Virus record (IMG/VR): IMGVR_UViG_3300042988_000510
Location: 26,101-90,100 of that record
Source of the DNA: a virus
DNA length: 64,000 nucleotides
Reading direction: 5' to 3' (one strand)
The translations under genes were made by a program, and so were the position numbers. Positions 40 through 64,000 of the stretch are shown here, one piece after another. The notes under the pieces are model-generated. The model made no database searches. It saw only the letters and a program-made list of their open reading frames with translations, and was not told where the DNA came from. The stretch's first letter is position 1; each line of letters begins with the position of its first letter.

Positions 40-375
40 ATGTGGTTGTGCTTAAAAGAAGGATTTCTGTCGATTGTTGATAAGGATGTTGCCGAGGGTC
101 AGTTGTTGGTTCGGTCGCGGGTCAAGGAGCACATCACCCGCTACTGGCCTGACGCCGATGTAAAGCGGACGCCTGGTACTCATCGGGACTACCTGTACCG
201 GGCCAGTATCAGCCGAGATGATGTTGCCAAAGTGATTGCGGATTACGTCATGAACGACATCTCCGAGGGCAACTTCAAGGCGTCGGTCACGGATCGCAAG
301 CTCCATAGGGTGCTCATGCGGGCTTGGGGCGTGTTTGCTGAACTGCAGGAGATACCTCCGTACTCTGACGGGTAA
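40..375 (+). CDS. Hypothetical phage protein
   Basis: 111-aa ORF with a strong RBS (AGGAG). Confidence 0.8.
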   Translation: MWLCLKEGFLSIVDKDVAEGQLLVRSRVKEHITRYWPDADVKRTPGTHRDYLYRASISRDDVAKVIADYVMNDISEGNFKASVTDRKLHRVLMRAWGVFAELQEIPPYSDG

Positions 376-447
376 GACCTTGTGGCCAGTGCGGTTTCTG
401 TGTTGGCCATCCTGTCTTGTGGTAAAATACCAGCAAAGCTATTCATC

Positions 448-1551
448 ATGATCATTACGGCAACACGCGAAACCCTGCTTGGCCCGCTGACGGCGGCCAT
501 GCCGGCGGTCAAGAAATCGACCCTACCGATCCTCAGCAACATGCTGCTGGACGCGCAGGCCGATGGCTTGCACATAACGGCCACCGATCTGGACACGCAG
601 ATTCGGTGCATGGTGGATGTCACCACTGAGCAACTGGGTGGTGTCACTCTGCCTGCTCGCAAGCTGCTGGACATCGTCAAACTGGCGCCAGCGGGCTCGA
701 CCATCAAACTGGCTACTGCCGATCTGGGCAAGCTCCGGGTGCAGGCGGGACCGTCGCGGTACACGCTGGCCACGTTGCCAGTTGAGAACTTCCCATCGTT
801 CGACCCGGGCGACATCATGCAGACGCTGGAGTTGCCGGCCGATGTCCTGTTGAAGGCGTTCAAGCGGGTGTCCTTCTGCGCGGCGGTCAACGACGTGCGC
901 TACTTCCTCAACGGGGTGGCGATTCGGCTGTTGGCGCATGAACTCGAGACGGCGGCCAGTGACGGTCATCGGCTGGCCGTGATGCAAACCCCATTGGCCG
1001 AACCGCCGGATGTCCCGAGCGACAGGCACCGCATCCTGCCCCGTGATTCGGTGCTGGCCATGATGAAGTTCCTGGCTGATGCCAAGACGGGCGCGGTCAA
1101 GCTCCAGATCGGGGACCGCACTGCGAGTATCACCATCAGTGATCAGCAGTTCTCGACCCGGCTGGTTGAGGGCGCTTATCCCAACATTCAGCGGGTCATA
1201 CCCAAGGACACCACGACGCACTTCATCGTGCCTGTGGCCGATATGCTGGCGTCGATTGCCAGGGCCGGCGTCGTCAGGGAGGGCAAGGACAACCCCATCC
1301 AGGTAGCCATCGAGCAGGACTCCCTGACCATCGAGGCGGCCAATGCTGCAGGCGATGATGCGCGGGAGGTGCTGCCAATCAATCTGGATGGCACTCCACT
1401 GACGTTGGGCTTCAACGGCAGCTATCTGGCCGAGTCGCTGGGTCAAGTCGATGCCGATACCGCCGAGTTCAAACTGCGGGATAACTCCGGGCTGGTGCTG
1501 GACCCCAGTGAGCCGGGGTGGCTGTCGGTTGTCATGCCGATGCGGTTATGA
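448..1551 (+). CDS. dnaN: DNA polymerase III beta sliding clamp
   Basis: Motifs TLPILSN, ATDLD, DVRYFLNG, ASDGHRLA, GAYPNIQRVIP, GFNGSYL and C-terminal VVMPMRL; start moved to ATG 448 (MIITATRETLL). Confidence 0.95.
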   Translation: MIITATRETLLGPLTAAMPAVKKSTLPILSNMLLDAQADGLHITATDLDTQIRCMVDVTTEQLGGVTLPARKLLDIVKLAPAGSTIKLATADLGKLRVQAGPSRYTLATLPVENFPSFDPGDIMQTLELPADVLLKAFKRVSFCAAVNDVRYFLNGVAIRLLAHELETAASDGHRLAVMQTPLAEPPDVPSDRHRILPRDSVLAMMKFLADAKTGAVKLQIGDRTASITISDQQFSTRLVEGAYPNIQRVIPKDTTTHFIVPVADMLASIARAGVVREGKDNPIQVAIEQDSLTIEAANAAGDDAREVLPINLDGTPLTLGFNGSYLAESLGQVDADTAEFKLRDNSGLVLDPSEPGWLSVVMPMRL

Positions 1552-11504: not shown

Positions 11505-11532
11505 TTGCTTCTGTGAATAGCATTGCTATTAT
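11505..11532 (+). promoter_or_regulatory. Sigma70-type promoter TTGCTT-16-TATTAT with a perfect operator at 11516-11530
   Basis: Same geometry as the 9586-9613 promoter. Confidence 0.75.
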
Positions 11533-59545: not shown

Positions 59546-60253
59546 CTACCATGGGTAAATGCTATGTCGTGAATTGTGCATTTCAATGCGCTCGACAAGA
59601 ACCTGTGTTCTCGCCTCCTTTGTTGCAGGCAGATATGTCCCTTTCCATTTCTTGTCTATCCCGATATTGCGGGCGACATTCGTAGAGTCGGCACTCGAGA
59701 AGGGCCACTCCGTATAAATCCTCGGATTCAACATTCGCAATCCGTGTAGCTTGCAGTTTGGCCTCCCATCTTCGTCGCAAATATGCGGCAGGACATCCAT
59801 AAGACGCGCATTCAATTTGGCTACATTGGATGCGTCATATTCACCGCTACTGCCAAGCGCGACTAGGGGCCATTCGCGTGAAAGCCTAACCAACCTATCA
59901 ATGGATTCATTTGTATGCCAAACGGCAGCGCCTTCATGCCGGTGGAATGGCCACTCACGCAAAAGCGCATCGTTATCTTCTTCTGAGCCTTCTATCACGT
60001 CTGGAATGACGGCAAAATCGAACCCTGGGTGACGCACCCACTTACCAACGTAAGCGTAATAATCCAGCCATTTAACGGGCTTTCCAGCTTTCCATAGCGA
60101 GAATGCACCGTTATCCAGCGCAAAGGATTGCGTACAGCCGGCCGCAACTTCCGTCTGGTCAGGGTGAGCAAAGCTGATGAAAGCATGCCGTCCAGTCCAT
60201 GCGCGAACCGCGCATGTCTCTGGAGTGATCGGCCCGCCATGGTAGTGAATCAC
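59546..60253 (-). CDS. TGT/DpdA-like fold protein (MIHYHG family)
   Basis: ALDNGAFS, VIPDVI, VWH, LHGLRM and SADST motifs parallel those of tRNA-guanine transglycosylase-like proteins; coupled to queD. Confidence 0.65.
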   Translation of the reverse strand: MIHYHGGPITPETCAVRAWTGRHAFISFAHPDQTEVAAGCTQSFALDNGAFSLWKAGKPVKWLDYYAYVGKWVRHPGFDFAVIPDVIEGSEEDNDALLREWPFHRHEGAAVWHTNESIDRLVRLSREWPLVALGSSGEYDASNVAKLNARLMDVLPHICDEDGRPNCKLHGLRMLNPRIYTEWPFSSADSTNVARNIGIDKKWKGTYLPATKEARTQVLVERIEMHNSRHSIYPW

Positions 60254-60654
60254 TCCTTGTGTACTCCGTGATAAAGCCCTTCACCATTCACCGCCATAGC
60301 CCAACAACGATCTGTTTCCCAAACTTTCACCGAGTGCAGGTATTGCAATTCTGGCGCTTTCAAAATCCACTCTGCGATATTCTCGGCTGTCGGATTATCA
60401 ATAATGTCGTTTAGGTATTGATGGTCAAGCTGTTTGATGATTGGATTCATCAACTTGTCTACCTTGGCGAAGTCCAATCCAGCACAAAAGCCATTCGGCT
60501 CAAATGTGTCTCCGCGAACTTCGACCTCGACTCGATAGTTATGCCCATGAAGTCTGTAACACTGGTGGTCTTCTGGCATGCGCAAAAGCCTGTGAGCAGC
60601 GGAAAATGTGTAAATCCTGCCGATGCGTGAATACTGCCAAGTACGCTTCATCAC
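60250..60654 (-). CDS. queD: 6-carboxytetrahydropterin synthase
   Basis: FSAAHRL, CYRLHGHNY, LDHQYLN, NPTAENIA and VWET motifs. Confidence 0.95.
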   Translation of the reverse strand: MMKRTWQYSRIGRIYTFSAAHRLLRMPEDHQCYRLHGHNYRVEVEVRGDTFEPNGFCAGLDFAKVDKLMNPIIKQLDHQYLNDIIDNPTAENIAEWILKAPELQYLHSVKVWETDRCWAMAVNGEGLYHGVHKE

Positions 60655-61339: not shown

Positions 61340-61503
61340 GTTTGGCCCTCGGTTGAGTTAGTTGGCCCGTATCGTGGGCGATCCGGCATCCTCACTCACT
61401 GGAGCAAGACACGAGATATGTGAGCGGATGCTGCCGGGGTTTGCCATGGCCTTGCGGCGTGGACGCATCCGCACTCCCGGCTGACCGGATGCGTCCCAGT
61501 GTT

Positions 61504-63042
61504 TCATGCGGCTTTTTTGCCTTTCTTGCTTTCTGGCTTTTTCTCAATCAGCAGGTCGGACTGGATGAACCGCAGTTCCCGTTTGGCCCGGGTGATGCCG
61601 ACGTAGCGCAGGTTGGTTTCCTGCTCGAGTTGCCATGCTTGTTTTGCACACTTCAGCGGGATCAGATCGGCGTCGAGGAACCAGACCCGGTCGGACTCAA
61701 GTCCCTTGGATTTGTGGATTGAGCAGAGCGTGATGGCCTGCCGGTTCTTGTCGTCATCCGAGAACATGGCTTCGATGCTGCGGATCAGGTCCGGGACTGT
61801 CTTGACGGTGGTGCGCTCGACGATGGCATGGATGCAGTTCACTTTGTCGTTGACCGCCTCGACCATGTCGTCACGCTCATCCTTGGCCCACCGCTTGACC
61901 TCGGTCTGCTGCCACTCGCCCAGCTTTTCGAGCAAGCCGTGAGCGCCCTTGATGCCTTTCGGCTGGAGCTTCTCGATCAGCTTGACCAGACCGCCACCGA
62001 TGTCTCGGCCGAGGATGCGGGCCGGGATGCCTTGCGAGATCAGCTTCCAAGCCAGGGAGATAACCGGGGCGTTCCGGCGGCAGATCACCATGTCGCCGCC
62101 CTGGAGTTCGGTCAATTCCCAGGCCGCTACCTGCTGGACCTCGCCGTCTGGCGCTGTCTCGGATGCCTCGATGCTCGGCATGACCTGCTGGGCTGCTGCT
62201 ACCACGGCTTTGGCGCATCGGTAGCTGATGGAAAGGGGCAGTTCGTCCGCATCGAACTTGTGGCGCAAGGTGTTCATCGCCTCGGCGTCCGATCCGCTGA
62301 AGCCGTAGACCGCCTGGCTTTTATCGCCGACCGCGATCAGTCGGCCGCCTTCTTTCAGGACCAAGCTGACCAGCTTGGTCCGCACCGGGCTGACGTCCTG
62401 GGCTTCGTTGACGAAGACCCAGTCGTAGCGGTCGTTCGAGAACTCGCGGATCGCCGGTATGTAGATCTGGTCGTCGAAGTCGATGACCCGCTTGTCGGCG
62501 GCCAGGTTGATGCTGGCCTGCACGCAGACCCGGGTGTAGTCGATCACCGTCTGCCTGACGTACTTGTCGACCGGAACCCCGAAGTGCTCGATCAGGTACT
62601 GCCAGGACTCGGCGTTATCCTCCATCAGCGGCACACCCTTGCAGCCCTGCGGCACCAGTCCCATGCGGCGCACGTAGCCACACAGGGCCATGACCGGCTC
62701 GGCAAATTCCCGGTAGTCGAACTTGTCGACGATCTGTTCGCGGACCAGCTTGCGGAGCTTGCCGCTATCGAGGATCGGGCGATTGATGCGGCTGGCCAGG
62801 ATGCTGTGGCCAAGACCGTTGAATGTCTTGACGTCGACGTGCTTGGGGGCACGCTGCTGGAGTTCGTCGGCGATTGATCGGTTGAATGCCAGCATCAGGA
62901 CCGACCGGCCTTCCGGGATCAGTTCCAGGGCCTTAATGATCGTCGTGGTTTTTCCACTCCCGGCGCAGGCTTGTATAACAGCACTGCCTGTACCGTCGGT
63001 GATGAAATCGAATACCGCTTGCTGGTACTTGCTTGGTTTCAT
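61504..63042 (-). CDS. UvrD/Rep-like SF1 helicase with variant Walker B
   Basis: ACAGSGKTTT, NEAQD, VGDKSQAVYGF, SYRC, SIHKSKGLE and YVGITRAK motifs; start MKPSKYQ at 63042. Confidence 0.9.
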   Translation of the reverse strand: MKPSKYQQAVFDFITDGTGSAVIQACAGSGKTTTIIKALELIPEGRSVLMLAFNRSIADELQQRAPKHVDVKTFNGLGHSILASRINRPILDSGKLRKLVREQIVDKFDYREFAEPVMALCGYVRRMGLVPQGCKGVPLMEDNAESWQYLIEHFGVPVDKYVRQTVIDYTRVCVQASINLAADKRVIDFDDQIYIPAIREFSNDRYDWVFVNEAQDVSPVRTKLVSLVLKEGGRLIAVGDKSQAVYGFSGSDAEAMNTLRHKFDADELPLSISYRCAKAVVAAAQQVMPSIEASETAPDGEVQQVAAWELTELQGGDMVICRRNAPVISLAWKLISQGIPARILGRDIGGGLVKLIEKLQPKGIKGAHGLLEKLGEWQQTEVKRWAKDERDDMVEAVNDKVNCIHAIVERTTVKTVPDLIRSIEAMFSDDDKNRQAITLCSIHKSKGLESDRVWFLDADLIPLKCAKQAWQLEQETNLRYVGITRAKRELRFIQSDLLIEKKPESKKGKKAA

Positions 63043-63090
63043 GGCTTGTCTCGGTGGTTGCCCCGGGCGGAATGCTTGGGGCTTGGGGGA

Positions 63091-63132
63091 ATGATGCGCT
63101 TGATGGGGCGTCAAGTCAATAGCATTGCTATT
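63091..63132 (-). promoter_or_regulatory. Putative promoter TTGACT-17-CATCAT with a perfect operator at 63118-63132
   Basis: AATAGCATTGCTATT overlaps the -35 of the leftward helicase operon. Confidence 0.65.
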
Positions 63133-63664
63133 CAGTTTGGTGCGCTTCTATGCCTTGCTATGCCTTCCGATTCATCCCGAATCATTGCCTTGGTGAAAAC
63201 CCACCGGTACGCGGATCGATACAATCCGCGCCCGCTGTGCTTTCCACTGTTTTTCAATCTAACCCAGCGCATTGCGCGTCACATCGATCTCTTGCTGCGC
63301 GATTGGTGGAAAACCCACCGGTATCCGGCACTGTCACCAATGCCGGACCCGCTTTGCTTTCCAGTGCCTGGCCTTGCTCATCCGTGCCTATCGTCGCGCT
63401 CCACTGCATATCAGTGCCCTGGTGAAAACCCACCGGGAGAGCGGCTGTCTCCAACCGCTAACCCGCTTTGCTTTCCAACTCAGTGCATATCCCTACACTG
63501 CAGCACTACGCCCATCGCGGCCGATCTATTCGCTCCGTTTGGCAGGAAAACCCACCGAAAGCGACTCTCGAAAGAGCCGCTGACGCTTTGCTTTCCCTTT
63601 CGGTTCTGAGCACATCGGCTTGGCGCTATGCGCTGCACATACGAGCAGTGCCTGTATTCGCTTA
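63132..63664 (-). ncRNA. Array of five pentamer-periodic tracts separated by four conserved hairpins (candidate guide-RNA array)
   Basis: Hairpin units at 63195-63245, 63309-63362, 63424-63476 and 63546-63596; in-phase C on the plus strand in 56 of 63 pentamers. Confidence 0.8.
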
Positions 63665-64000
63665 CACGCCTGTCCGCACACCGGCCGGCATGCGCTGAGA
63701 GACGGCTGGCGGCTGATTGGCGGGGTTCACCCGGATGGGTGACTTGTCCTTAATGCTCTCCCGCTTGACGATGATTCTGGCCTGGACCTGATCGGCATCC
63801 CGCATGGTTTTGGTATCTGCCGGGGTGTTCTTGCTCAGGATCAAGGCCCGTTTCAACTTCTTGTCGGCGGATGACATATAGCTCTCGACCTGGGCCGCAT
63901 TTTCACTCGGCAGGAGGATGCGGTAGTTGCCCTTGGTCTGCGCCAGATACTTGCCCTCGCGGAGCAAGATTTTCCTGACGTAATCCACAGCCGACAATTC
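63662..64000 (-). CDS. Hypothetical basic protein, 5'-truncated by the window edge
   Basis: Frame is open to the window end; its stop codon abuts the first pentamer tract. Confidence 0.75.
   Translation of the reverse strand, partial: ELSAVDYVRKILLREGKYLAQTKGNYRILLPSENAAQVESYMSSADKKLKRALILSKNTPADTKTMRDADQVQARIIVKRESIKDKSPIRVNPANQPPAVSQRMPAGVRTGV

What the first reader, a model, noticed from the sequence alone, without database searches (positions are those of the whole stretch)
63132..63664. Non-CRISPR array of pentamer-coded tracts: candidate programmable guide-RNA system
Seen: five 60-70 nt tracts (63132-63191, 63244-63303, 63361-63420, 63475-63539, 63595-63664) share no contiguous sequence but have strict 5-nt phasing. 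The in-phase base is C on the plus strand (G on the minus strand) in 11/12, 9/12, 12/12, 13/13 and 11/14 pentamers. Minus-strand example: AG-GGC AC-TGA TA-TGC AG-TGG AG-CGC GA-CGA TA-GGC AC-GGA TG-AGC AA-GGC CA-GGC AC-TGG, i.e. a variable NN alternating with an NGN triplet, most often NGC or NGA. The tracts are separated by conserved hairpins, and the array starts at the stop codon of the upstream gene. Inference: each tract is one RNA coated by a repeating protein subunit (one per pentamer), with the NN pairs spelling a gapped target. From memory, and not verifiable here, this resembles recently reported phage VIPR-type arrays (GGY/NN alternation with a Cas7/RAMP-like protein), but the triplet here is more degenerate. 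No RAMP-like gene is visible in the window; it would have to lie beyond 64000.
Basis: partly seen in the sequence, partly recalled or inferred. Interest (0 to 1): 0.95.

Follow-up and report, generated by a model that had tools for sequence, protein, structure and literature searches.

The report
Phage VIPR guide-RNA array, downstream set
This stretch is an array of guide RNAs for VIPR, a CRISPR-related phage DNA-silencing system first described in 2026, and one guide spells a replication-module gene carried by other phages and prophages.

Summary
All five tracts have the stated 5-nt phase (C in 11/12, 9/12, 12/12, 13/13, 11/14; at most 55 of 5000 shuffles reach this). Four conserved structured elements of about 55 nt separate them.

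The contig is circular. The missing RAMP gene lies just past the window's end: a 199-aa protein matching the solved SUSP1 Vipr protein (E 2.7e-23, nearly full length). A conserved vap gene follows it and ends exactly where the array starts.

The unit on the minus strand is NN-G-[C/A]-[A/..], a relaxed form of the NN-GCA unit found beside vipr in 22 of 23 loci of this clade that were tabulated.

With the corrected register and the published skip-one-base rule, guide D1 gave 9 exact matches in 9 IMG/VR contigs. All lie in one gene (phrog_2300), between a Sak4-like gene and a helicase gene, and the skipped bases fall on codon third positions. Guides D2 to D5 gave none.

This is a new member of a known kind. 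Earlier notes of this scan had already called the same locus's upstream array "VIPR, GCA type". Expression, processing and protein folds could not be tested.

The parts
63662..64000 (-). C-terminal 112 codons of the vap (vipr-accessory) gene. Its N-terminal part lies at contig bases 1-303, across the circular junction.
   Evidence: ORF, junction. Homologues lie directly downstream of vipr in the related loci (tblastn; 24-row alignment A3). hhalign to the gene after vipr in Felixounavirus wV8 gives probability 86.9%, E 4.2e-6. No Pfam or PHROG family.
63654..63663 (-). Two leading pentamers (AA-GCG, AA-TAC) that overlap the vap stop codon. Probably not part of guide D1.
   Evidence: Units listed. 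They match 0-1 of 4 positions in the D1 target sites.
63594..63653 (-). Guide D1: 12 pentamers NN-Gxy (NN = AG CT CG GT GC TA CC CC GT CA CC AG).
   Evidence: Under the 1-nt skip rule it matches 23 of 24 NN positions in 9 of 9 IMG/VR hits.
63539..63593 (-). Tail B, copy 1: constant units AA-GCA AA-GCG, a variable hairpin, then CGGTGGGTTTTCC.
   Evidence: minus-strand MFE -28.5, z -4.0; plus strand -15.0.
63474..63538 (-). Guide D2: 13 pentamers, G in phase 13/13.
   Evidence: The 10-unit skip-1 pattern had 0 hits in viral contigs and metagenome contigs.
63420..63473 (-). Tail B, copy 2.
   Evidence: minus -31.6, z -4.2; plus -19.9.
63360..63419 (-). Guide D3: 12 pentamers, G in phase 12/12.
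   Evidence: 0 hits.
63303..63359 (-). Tail B, copy 3.
   Evidence: minus -37.0, z -5.9; plus -23.2.
63243..63302 (-). Guide D4: 12 pentamers, G in phase 9/12 (the most degenerate).
   Evidence: 0 hits.
63191..63242 (-). Tail B, copy 4.
   Evidence: minus -32.5, z -6.6; plus -19.1.
63121..63190 (-). Tract D5: up to 14 pentamers (G 13/14) with no tail B. Its last units run into an operator/promoter. It may be a tail-less or decaying guide.
   Evidence: 0 hits.
63091..63133 (-). Palindrome AATAGCAATGCTATT fused to a promoter-like site TTGACT-17-CATCAT, facing the helicase gene. It marks the end of the array.
   Evidence: A near-identical copy (2 mismatches) precedes the upstream array at contig 1357-1377, with the promoter-like site TTGACT-17-GAGAAT.

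Best explanation
The stretch is the downstream guide-RNA (vrRNA) array of a VIPR system carried by a roughly 90-kb temperate phage from a freshwater metagenome. Read on the minus strand across the circular junction, the locus is: operator and promoter, three vrRNAs with a double-hairpin tail (tail A), vipr, vap, then this array, which holds four complete vrRNAs (D1-D4) and one tail-less tract (D5). Each complete vrRNA is about 112-119 nt: 12-13 pentamers followed by a 52-57-nt structured tail B. Inferred steps follow. The array is read through from the promoter upstream of vipr, because no promoter-like site lies between vap and D1, and the transcript is cut into single vrRNAs. One Vipr protomer binds each pentamer through the invariant G. 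That G corresponds to G1 of the published GGY motif, and the other two constant positions are relaxed to C/A and A/T/G. The two variable bases 5' of each G are presented for pairing, and the filament binds double-stranded DNA that reads NN-x-NN-x. Shown in silico: guide D1 matches a conserved coding site, about codons 40-51, of a phrog_2300 gene lying between a Sak4-like annealing-protein gene and a DEAD/ResIII helicase gene in other phages and proviruses. The likely job is therefore to silence the replication/recombination operon of a competing resident prophage or co-infecting phage.
For: Vipr: phmmer against PDB 36pp_D 'SUSP1 Vipr protein' gives E 2.7e-23 over 193 of 199 residues, including the G-loop GGFGDFRPTFGR. 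phrog_4652 gives E 6.4e-59. Identity to the wV8 homologue is 29%, E 8e-32. vap: conserved directly after vipr and distantly like the gene after vipr in wV8. Periodicity. Strand: G is in phase on the same strand as vipr and vap, and the tails fold 11.7-13.8 kcal/mol better on the minus strand, with 2-3 G-U pairs each. Comparative: 22 of 23 clade loci tabulated (L003 gave no tract within the windows used) have G-phased pentamer tracts beside vipr with near-uniform NN. GCA is the commonest triplet in 21 of the 22, and GAA in L006 (lists). Residue logic: the SUSP1 contacts are taken from the cryo-EM preprint and mapped with the alignment. D177 is kept in 14 of 14 clade sequences. R138 and W178, which hold G2, are replaced: there is no R or K at the R138 position in 14 of 14, and F replaces W in 12 of 14. 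This fits loss of the second G. Target: the corrected-register 10-unit pattern of D1 hit 9 contigs. Units 3-13 match 22/22 and unit 14 matches 1/2. The skipped bases are codon third positions and vary among the 9 hits at 5 of those 11 units (ORF). The gene is phrog_2300 (E 6e-48), flanked by AAA_24/Sak4-like and ResIII/DEAD genes. Three of the five target records looked up are classed as proviruses, and their GC is 0.577-0.606 against 0.581 for this phage. No self-target exceeds permuted controls, as the discovery preprint reports for its systems.
Against: There is no RNA evidence: no listed run is on record as RNA, so transcription, processing and RNP formation are inferred. Guides D2, D3, D4 and D5 gave 0 exact 10-unit hits. 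None of the other seven guides matches the nine target records above permuted controls, so there is no convergence of several guides on one element. The D1 hits are nine homologous copies of one site, which is effectively one event. By my own rough estimate, not a tool result, a 20-base pattern has on the order of 0.1-0.3 chance sites in a collection of about 1e11 bases. The triplets are degenerate: GCA in 18 of 65 D units, G in phase in 58 of 65. D5 lacks a tail. The canonical GGY motif is not met.
Confidence: 0.85

Rival explanations
1. The array is a captured array from another VIPR lineage, and its RNAs are meant for a rival's Vipr protein. They would act as decoy or hijacking vrRNAs, like the satellite and 'solo' vrRNAs described in the October 2026 preprint, rather than as guides for this phage's own Vipr.
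For: Tail B differs from the tail A of the three vrRNAs upstream of vipr in the same locus. In IMG/VR the tail-B motif occurs only in two other contigs. There, two tail-B vrRNAs sit in front of a vipr remnant: 41 residues at 66% identity, fused to a DUF1382 domain. That is a vipr-null phage with solo vrRNAs. The preprint describes solo vrRNAs that redirect another element's VIPR (abstract, section 8).
Against: The pentamer unit, the terminal xx-GCG unit and the hairpin-plus-hairpin layout are shared by both tail classes, so one Vipr could load both. The array is placed like the downstream array of the type II locus. D1 has a sensible phage target rather than a host repeat.
Confidence: 0.08
2. 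The array is a decaying, largely non-functional remnant: old guides drifting away from the GCA unit, with only the periodic G left.
For: GCA makes up only 18 of 65 units, against 18 of 48 in the upstream array and usually more than 60% in relatives. D4 has 3 of 12 units without G. D5 has no tail. Four of five guides had no hit.
Against: The four tails keep stable folds with wholly different inner-stem sequences, that is, compensated stems. D2 and D3 have G in 13/13 and 12/12 units. D1 matches its target at 23 of 24 positions. The two closest Vipr relatives (62% and 61% identity) also have relaxed triplets (L004, L006), which points to a relaxed specificity of the subclade rather than decay. 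A contig from another freshwater sample covers 63594-63880 with 8 differences in 287 aligned bases.
Confidence: 0.06
3. The stretch is not an RNA-guide array at all. It would be a protein-coding or protein-binding DNA repeat (iterons, REP-like elements), or a chance periodicity.
For: A 212-aa + strand ORF (62971-63609) and several short ORFs overlap the region. Rfam has no match.
Against: A period of 5 is incompatible with codons. The period is absent from shuffles and is conserved next to vipr in unrelated phages whose tract sequences differ. No Pfam or PHROG family covers the overlapping ORFs' region, and the neighbouring genes read on the minus strand.
Confidence: 0.01

Closest known systems
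Type II VIPR system of Escherichia phage SUSP1 and related Felixounaviruses (bioRxiv 10.64898/2026.04.26.720920 and 10.64898/2026.04.26.720927; Results and some Methods sections read)
   Same: Both have a roughly 200-aa Vipr (E 2.7e-23 to the solved SUSP1 protein) followed by a small vap gene. Both have vrRNAs upstream and downstream of the two genes. Both have 12-14 pentamer repeats capped by a structured 3' tail, are phage-encoded, show no self-target, and have a target that fits the 1-nt skip rule with skips on codon wobble positions.
   Different: Protein identity is only 29%. The constant triplet is G-[C/A]-[A/T/G] rather than GGY. The residues that hold G2 in SUSP1 (R138, W178) are replaced. 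There are two different tail classes in one locus. The published pseudoknot tail was not shown here. The type could not be assigned because the type tables and logos are in supplements and figures that I could not see.
GCA-type Vipr clade: Vibrio phage 1.266.O, Listonella phage phiHSIC, 20 IMG/VR loci, and prophage-like loci in Azonexus, Rhodoferax and other MAGs
   Same: Vipr identity is 41-62%. vap lies directly downstream. The pentamer unit is NN-GCA with uniform NN. Many tracts end in xx-GCG.
   Different: In most relatives the arrays lie only upstream of vipr and GCA is strict (60-98% C and A). Here the triplet is relaxed and a second array with a rare tail follows vap. Whether the discovery preprint's 'YNNNG' class is this clade is my reading of its notation, not something it states. 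'GCA' does not occur in its main text.
VIPR-null phages with solo vrRNAs (bioRxiv 10.64898/2026.10.15.759431; abstract and section 8 read)
   Same: The only other carriers of tail B, an 85-kb IMG/VR phage and a 20-kb fragment, have two vrRNAs in front of a deleted vipr. The published SUSP1-like vipr-null phages have the same layout.
   Different: They belong to a different Vipr clade and phage family (no match to this phage's capsid protein). The window's own locus is complete, not vipr-null.
Class 1 CRISPR Cas7-crRNA backbone
   Same: A RAMP protein polymerises along a guide RNA at a fixed period and flips out bases at regular intervals (as stated in the preprints).
   Different: There are no CRISPR repeats, spacers of contiguous sequence, cas genes or adaptation module. 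The period is 5 with only 2 pairing bases. The guide is hard-coded.

Membership tests
VIPR system | A Vipr protein (stand-alone RAMP homologue) encoded at the locus | tested here: met
   A 199-aa ORF at contig 296-895 (-), 2 genes upstream of the array across the circular junction. PDB 36pp_D 'SUSP1 Vipr protein' E 2.7e-23, phrog_4652 E 6.4e-59, and a BLASTP match to the wV8 homologue at E 8e-32.
VIPR system | RAMP fold with RRM core, glycine-rich loop and thumb | not testable with these tools
Only sequence-level evidence is available: the G-loop GGFGDFRPTFGR aligns to the SUSP1 G-loop and D177 is conserved.
VIPR system | vrRNA genes made of 9-16 tandem pentamers, with a constant triplet alternating with a hypervariable NN | tested here: met
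   Each guide has 12-14 units. G is in phase in 58 of 65 units, and N1 and N2 are near-uniform.
VIPR system | Constant triplet GGY | tested here: not met
   The triplet is G-[C 0.46 / A 0.34 / G 0.17]-[A 0.57 / T 0.20 / G 0.17]. The discovery preprint allows 'a related consensus' and lists NNNGG, YNNNG and NNNNG repeats, so this does not exclude membership.
VIPR system | Conserved structured 3' tail after the repeat tract | tested here: met
   Four tails of 52-57 nt, with z -4.0 to -6.6 against shuffles and inner stems of different sequence. A pseudoknot as in SUSP1 was neither shown nor excluded.
VIPR system | vipr-accessory (vap) gene next to vipr | tested here: met
   Conserved directly after vipr in the relatives. 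hhalign probability to the wV8 gene in the vap1 position is 86.9%. Its function is unknown.
VIPR system | Targets follow the 1-nt skip (NNx) rule | tested here: met
   Met for D1 only: 23 of 24 NN positions in 9 of 9 hits, with skips on wobble positions. D2-D5 had 0 exact hits.
VIPR system | vrRNAs are expressed, processed to about 100 nt and co-purify with Vipr | not testable with these tools
   No RNA holder is listed, and the laid runs are contigs.
VIPR type II (SUSP1 / P. fulva) | Vipr phylogenetic placement, vap1 and GGY vrRNAs with a pseudoknot tail | tested here: inconclusive
   The locus architecture matches and vap is distantly alike. But identity is 29%, the triplet is not GGY, and the type-defining tree and logos are in figures and supplements that I could not read.
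Ribozyme-interspersed VIPR arrays (hammerhead between vrRNAs) | Hammerhead ribozyme between adjacent vrRNAs | tested here: not met
   Rfam cmscan of 62500-64000, both strands, E up to 1: 0 matches.

The most novel reading that the evidence does not exclude
One Vipr protein in this phage loads two structurally different vrRNA classes. In this subclade the protein needs only a single phased G per pentamer: G1 is kept, and the G2 and Y3 pockets are relaxed. The tail-B array would be a cassette exchanged between VIPR lineages, whose other surviving copies are solo vrRNAs in a vipr-null phage. If so, guide cassettes move horizontally and the 'code' tolerates far more than GGY, which widens both the natural search space for vrRNAs and the design rules.
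Probability: 0.3. Interest if true: 0.6.

Novelty: new member of a known kind. Interest (0 to 1): 0.42.

Why it matters
VIPR was described only in 2026, and the experiments I read use the GGY-type systems of SUSP1 and P. fulva. This locus adds three things. It is a complete, well-delimited system of the G-C-A clade with a relaxed triplet. It gives an in-silico indication that the skip-one-base, wobble-aligned targeting rule also holds there. And it yields a concrete predicted target, the Sak4 / phrog_2300 / helicase replication module of other phages and proviruses. It also shows that the register of NN relative to the phased G must be fixed before target searches: the wrong register gives nothing. 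The residue substitutions at the SUSP1 G2 contacts offer a testable explanation for the changed motif. None of this changes the picture of what VIPR is.

Tried and rejected
Rfam search of 62500-64000: no family, so no hammerhead or other known ribozyme or RNA.

Tandem Repeats Finder sees only trivial short repeats, because the copies differ too much.

Megablast of 24 kb and blastn of the array against 50,697 phage records: no match. tblastn of the vap C-terminal part against the same records: no match.

Pfam and PHROGs on both vap parts: nothing. Pfam on 24 vap rows: only sub-threshold noise. PDB profile search: nothing credible. The ESM Atlas gives only unnamed, mostly viral clusters.

Self-targets: none above permuted controls in the phage's own genome.

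Targets among 28 held loci with vipr neighbourhoods, in the 85-kb tail-B phage and the reverse direction, and in nine D1-target records for the other seven guides: none above controls.

Exact 10-unit skip-1 patterns gave 0 hits for D3 and D2 in viral contigs and metagenome contigs, and for D4 and D5 in viral contigs. These searches need exact matches and are much less sensitive than the profile searches of the preprint.

D1 11-unit pattern: 0 of 5 vipr-bearing genomes at up to 2 mismatches, and 0 of 401 genomes sampled from the order of an Azonexus genome at up to 1 mismatch. The host remains unknown.

Helicase as an accessory of the system: rejected. There is no helicase homologue in the related loci held when the BLAST database was built (L002-L039). 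The gene has its own promoter-like site. A contig from another sample joins 61496 to 63147 without it (low depth).

Expression: no RNA holder is listed. The one run labelled RNA-Seq is probably DNA and does not cover the array, so nothing can be said.

The comparison of registers and skips on the target loci is circular, because those loci were chosen by the match, and is not used as a control.

Supplements of the three preprints were not opened. The lists of 667 systems, the type logos (fig. S17) and the target tables may already contain this clade or even this contig.
Full report
**What is there.** In 5000 dinucleotide-preserving shuffles per tract, best of five phases, 0, 55, 0, 0 and 0 reach these values. 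The C autocorrelation over 63132-63664 peaks at lags 5, 10 and 15 (z 3.8, 3.0, 3.9). Between the tracts lie four copies of a conserved element with start-to-start spacings of 114-122 nt. Rfam has no match on either strand.

**Finding the missing protein.** The window is bases 26101-90100 of a single 90,100-base virus record. The record's two ends overlap by 136 nt with one mismatch, so the genome is circular or terminally redundant. Reading on across the junction on the minus strand, the ORF that runs off the window (63662-64000) continues into the contig start. It is preceded by a 199-aa ORF at contig 296-895.
- That protein matches PDB 36pp chain D, 'SUSP1 Vipr protein', at E 2.7e-23 over residues 5-197 of 199.
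- It also matches phrog_4652 at E 6.4e-59 and the Felixounavirus wV8 homologue at 29% identity, E 8e-32.
- Pfam has nothing for it.

**What the preprints say.** VIPR systems were described in three bioRxiv preprints of 2026, found. I read the Results and parts of the Methods of 10.64898/2026.04.26.720920. I read two Results sections of 10.64898/2026.04.26.720927. I read the abstract and section 8 of 10.64898/2026.10.15.759431. They report the following:
- a stand-alone RAMP protein (Vipr), usually with one accessory gene (vap);
- vrRNAs of 9-16 YNNGG pentamers capped by a structured 3' tail;
- one Vipr protomer per pentamer;
- recognition of double-stranded DNA in which NN pairs and every third target base is skipped;
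- targets mostly in competing phages, satellites and prophages.

**The accessory gene.** The ORF between vipr and the array is a vap. tblastn of its two halves finds a homologue starting within a few bases of the vipr stop in the related loci: 24 loci at E 1e-15 or better, and the Vibrio and Listonella phages more weakly (ORFs; alignment A3). A profile of these proteins aligns to the gene that follows vipr in wV8 with hhalign probability 86.9%, E 4.2e-6. It has no Pfam, PHROG or PDB relative. The Atlas places it only with unnamed, mostly viral clusters.

**Strand and unit.** The phased base is G on the minus strand, the strand of vipr and vap. The tails fold to -28.5, -31.6, -37.0 and -32.5 kcal/mol as minus-strand RNA (z -4.0 to -6.6), against -15.0 to -23.2 for the plus strand, with 2-3 G-U pairs each.

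Written on the minus strand with the G third, the units read NN-Gxy. Over 65 units of this array:
- positions 1 and 2 are near-uniform;
- position 3 is G in 0.89;
- position 4 is C 0.46, A 0.34, G 0.17;
- position 5 is A 0.57, T 0.20, G 0.17.

**Comparison with relatives.** Relatives of this Vipr were found as follows:
- Vibrio phage 1.266.O, 54%;
- Listonella phage phiHSIC, 49.5%;
- 20 IMG/VR loci, 42-62%;
- six loci in prokaryote assemblies, including an Azonexus chromosome and a Rhodoferax MAG, 45-57%.

Of 23 clade loci tabulated, 22 have G-phased pentamer tracts beside vipr on its strand (L003 fell outside my position filter, but its tracts appear). GCA is the commonest triplet in 21 of them, and N1 and N2 are near-uniform. 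The two closest relatives (L004, L006) share the relaxed triplet.

**Why the motif may differ.** The cryo-EM preprint says that G1 is read by H17 and D177, G2 by R138 and W178, and Y3 by a pocket of the next protomer. In the alignment D177 is kept, H17 is N, R138 is A and W178 is F. In 14 clade sequences D is invariant, no sequence has R or K at the R138 position, and 12 have F at the W178 position. I infer that the phased G is G1 and that the G2 and Y3 positions have changed to C and A, and are further relaxed here. This is inference from an alignment, not a structure.

**Anatomy of the array** (minus strand):
- The vap stop is TAA at 63664-63662, followed by two pentamers that overlap it.
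- D1 is 63653-63594, 12 units, with its tail at 63593-63539.
- D2 is 63538-63474, 13 units, with its tail at 63473-63420.
- D3 is 63419-63360, 12 units, with its tail at 63359-63303.
- D4 is 63302-63243, 12 units, with its tail at 63242-63191.
- D5 is 63190-63121, up to 14 units, with no tail.

Each tail starts with the constant units AA-GCA and AA-GCG (CA-GCG in D4). A hairpin follows whose stem differs completely between copies, and the tail ends in CGGTGGGTTTTC(C)ACC. The predicted fold is either one long interrupted helix, with GGAAAG pairing with UUUUCC, or two hairpins. The two forms could combine as a pseudoknot, which I could not test with six sequences.

**The end of the array and its promoters.** D5 runs into the palindrome AATAGCAATGCTATT, which is fused to a promoter-like site facing the helicase gene. 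A copy with 2 mismatches and a promoter-like TTGACT-17-GAGAAT site precede a second, upstream array of three vrRNAs at contig 990-1330, which have a different double-hairpin tail. No promoter-like site lies between vap and D1. I therefore infer one transcript running from the promoter through U1-U3, vipr and vap to D1-D5.

**Tail B elsewhere.** A motif scan of IMG/VR found tail B in only two other contigs, an 85-kb phage and a 20-kb fragment. There, two tail-B vrRNAs precede a 98-aa ORF. Its first 41 residues are Vipr (66% identity) and the rest is a DUF1382 domain. No other vipr is present in the 98%-complete record. That phage shows no match to this phage's capsid protein. It resembles the vipr-null, solo-vrRNA phages of the October preprint.

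**Targets.** No guide matches the phage's own genome above permuted controls. I turned ten central units of each guide into NN-x patterns and scanned the public collections, which accept exact matches only.
- D3 and D2: 0 hits in viral contigs and metagenome contigs.
- D4 and D5: 0 hits in viral contigs.
- D1: 9 hits in 9 contigs.

In all nine D1 hits, units 3-13 match 22/22, unit 14 matches 1/2, and the two pentamers over the vap stop do not match. The site lies on the opposite strand, in a 198-aa ORF at about codons 40-51 in L041. The skipped bases are the codons' third positions, and these differ among the nine contigs at 5 of the 11 units. The protein is phrog_2300 (E 6.2e-48, function unknown, no Pfam). 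It lies between a Sak4-like AAA_24 gene and a ResIII/DEAD helicase gene. Its relatives include Acidithiobacillus phage AcaML1 (56.6%) and Wolbachia WO phages.

Of five target records looked up, three are classed as proviruses and none carries vipr. Their GC is 0.577-0.606, against 0.581 for this phage. The other seven guides do not match these records.

**Weight of the target evidence.** The nine hits are homologous, so they count as one site. Five other patterns of equal information gave nothing in the same collection, and two of those also gave nothing in the metagenome collection. The 11-unit D1 pattern with one mismatch allowed found nothing in 401 sampled genomes. My own rough estimate is 0.1-0.3 chance sites per 20-base pattern. 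The extra matched unit and the wobble register lower this by more than tenfold. I rate the target as probable (about 0.7), not proven.

**Context.** The phage is about 90 kb with GC 0.581.
- It has an integrase, RecE/RecT-like genes and a capsid protein 48-51% identical to those of Bordetella phage PHB04, Aeromonas phage ST4 and Pseudomonas phage Touem01.
- It is nearly identical to contigs of one freshwater metagenome sample, probably its source.
- A contig from another freshwater study covers 63594-63880 with 8 differences.
- Low-depth contigs there join tail to tail across D4 (63244 to 63304) and across D3 through D2 (63362 to 63540), and join 61496 to 63147 without the helicase gene. This hints that relatives differ in guide content and lack the helicase, but it rests on single contigs at depth 3-5.
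- The helicase (UvrD-like) has no counterpart near vipr in the related loci held when the BLAST database was built (L002-L039), and I do not count it as part of the system.

**Earlier notes of this scan** had already called the upstream array of this same genome a VIPR array of 'GCA type' and its separators vrRNA tails. My results agree and extend that reading to the downstream array.

**Verdict.** This is a genuine VIPR locus and a new member of a known kind. Three features stand out: a relaxed G-[C/A]-[A/..] unit, two tail classes in one locus, and one predicted natural target in the replication module of other phages and proviruses. Expression, processing, loading and silencing are inferred by homology.

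Noticed in passing
contig C1:990-1377 (L001), outside the window across the circular junction: There is a second vrRNA array of three guides (14, 20 and 14 units) upstream of vipr. It has a different double-hairpin tail, and an operator plus promoter-like site (TTGACT-17-GAGAAT) precede it. Earlier notes of this scan already followed it up.
   Followed up: partly
window 63113-63133, window 11511-11531, contig C1:1357-1377 and C1:4741-4761, all minus strand: Four copies of the palindrome AATAGCA-N-TGCTATT, three of them fused to TTGAC. This is probably the operator of one phage regulator controlling minus-strand early promoters, including the one that feeds the VIPR locus.
   Followed up: partly
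L022 2780-3300 (IMG/VR 85-kb record G001) and its 20-kb twin L023: A vipr-null phage: two tail-B vrRNAs in front of a 98-aa ORF made of 41 Vipr residues fused to DUF1382, with no other vipr in a 98%-complete record. Its two guides match neither this phage nor itself above controls.
   Followed up: partly
window 61504-63042 (-): A UvrD-like helicase with its own promoter-like site lies directly after the array. A low-depth contig from another freshwater run joins 61496 to 63147 with 24 other letters in between, that is, a relative without this gene.
   Followed up: partly
window 63244-63304 and 63362-63540: Contigs of another freshwater sample join tail to tail across D4 and across D3-tail-D2 (depth 3.4, one contig each). 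This is a possible difference in guide content between related phages.
   Followed up: no
L008 1705-2035: In a related VIPR locus, about 22 tandem copies of a 15-nt unit (three pentamers CT-GGC CG-GCG CC-TAT) lie some 500 nt upstream of its vrRNA array. The purpose is unknown.
   Followed up: no
window 60250-60654 (-) and 59546-60253 (-): A QueD-like 6-pyruvoyl-tetrahydropterin synthase (PF01242, E 4.4e-29) sits next to a 235-aa protein without a Pfam family. This may be a 7-deazaguanine DNA-modification module. That reading is from recall and was not tested.
   Followed up: no
contig ends (window 63865-64000 and contig C1:1-136): The record's ends overlap by 136 nt with one mismatch, although IMG/VR classes the record as linear. 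The vap gene is split by this junction.
   Followed up: yes
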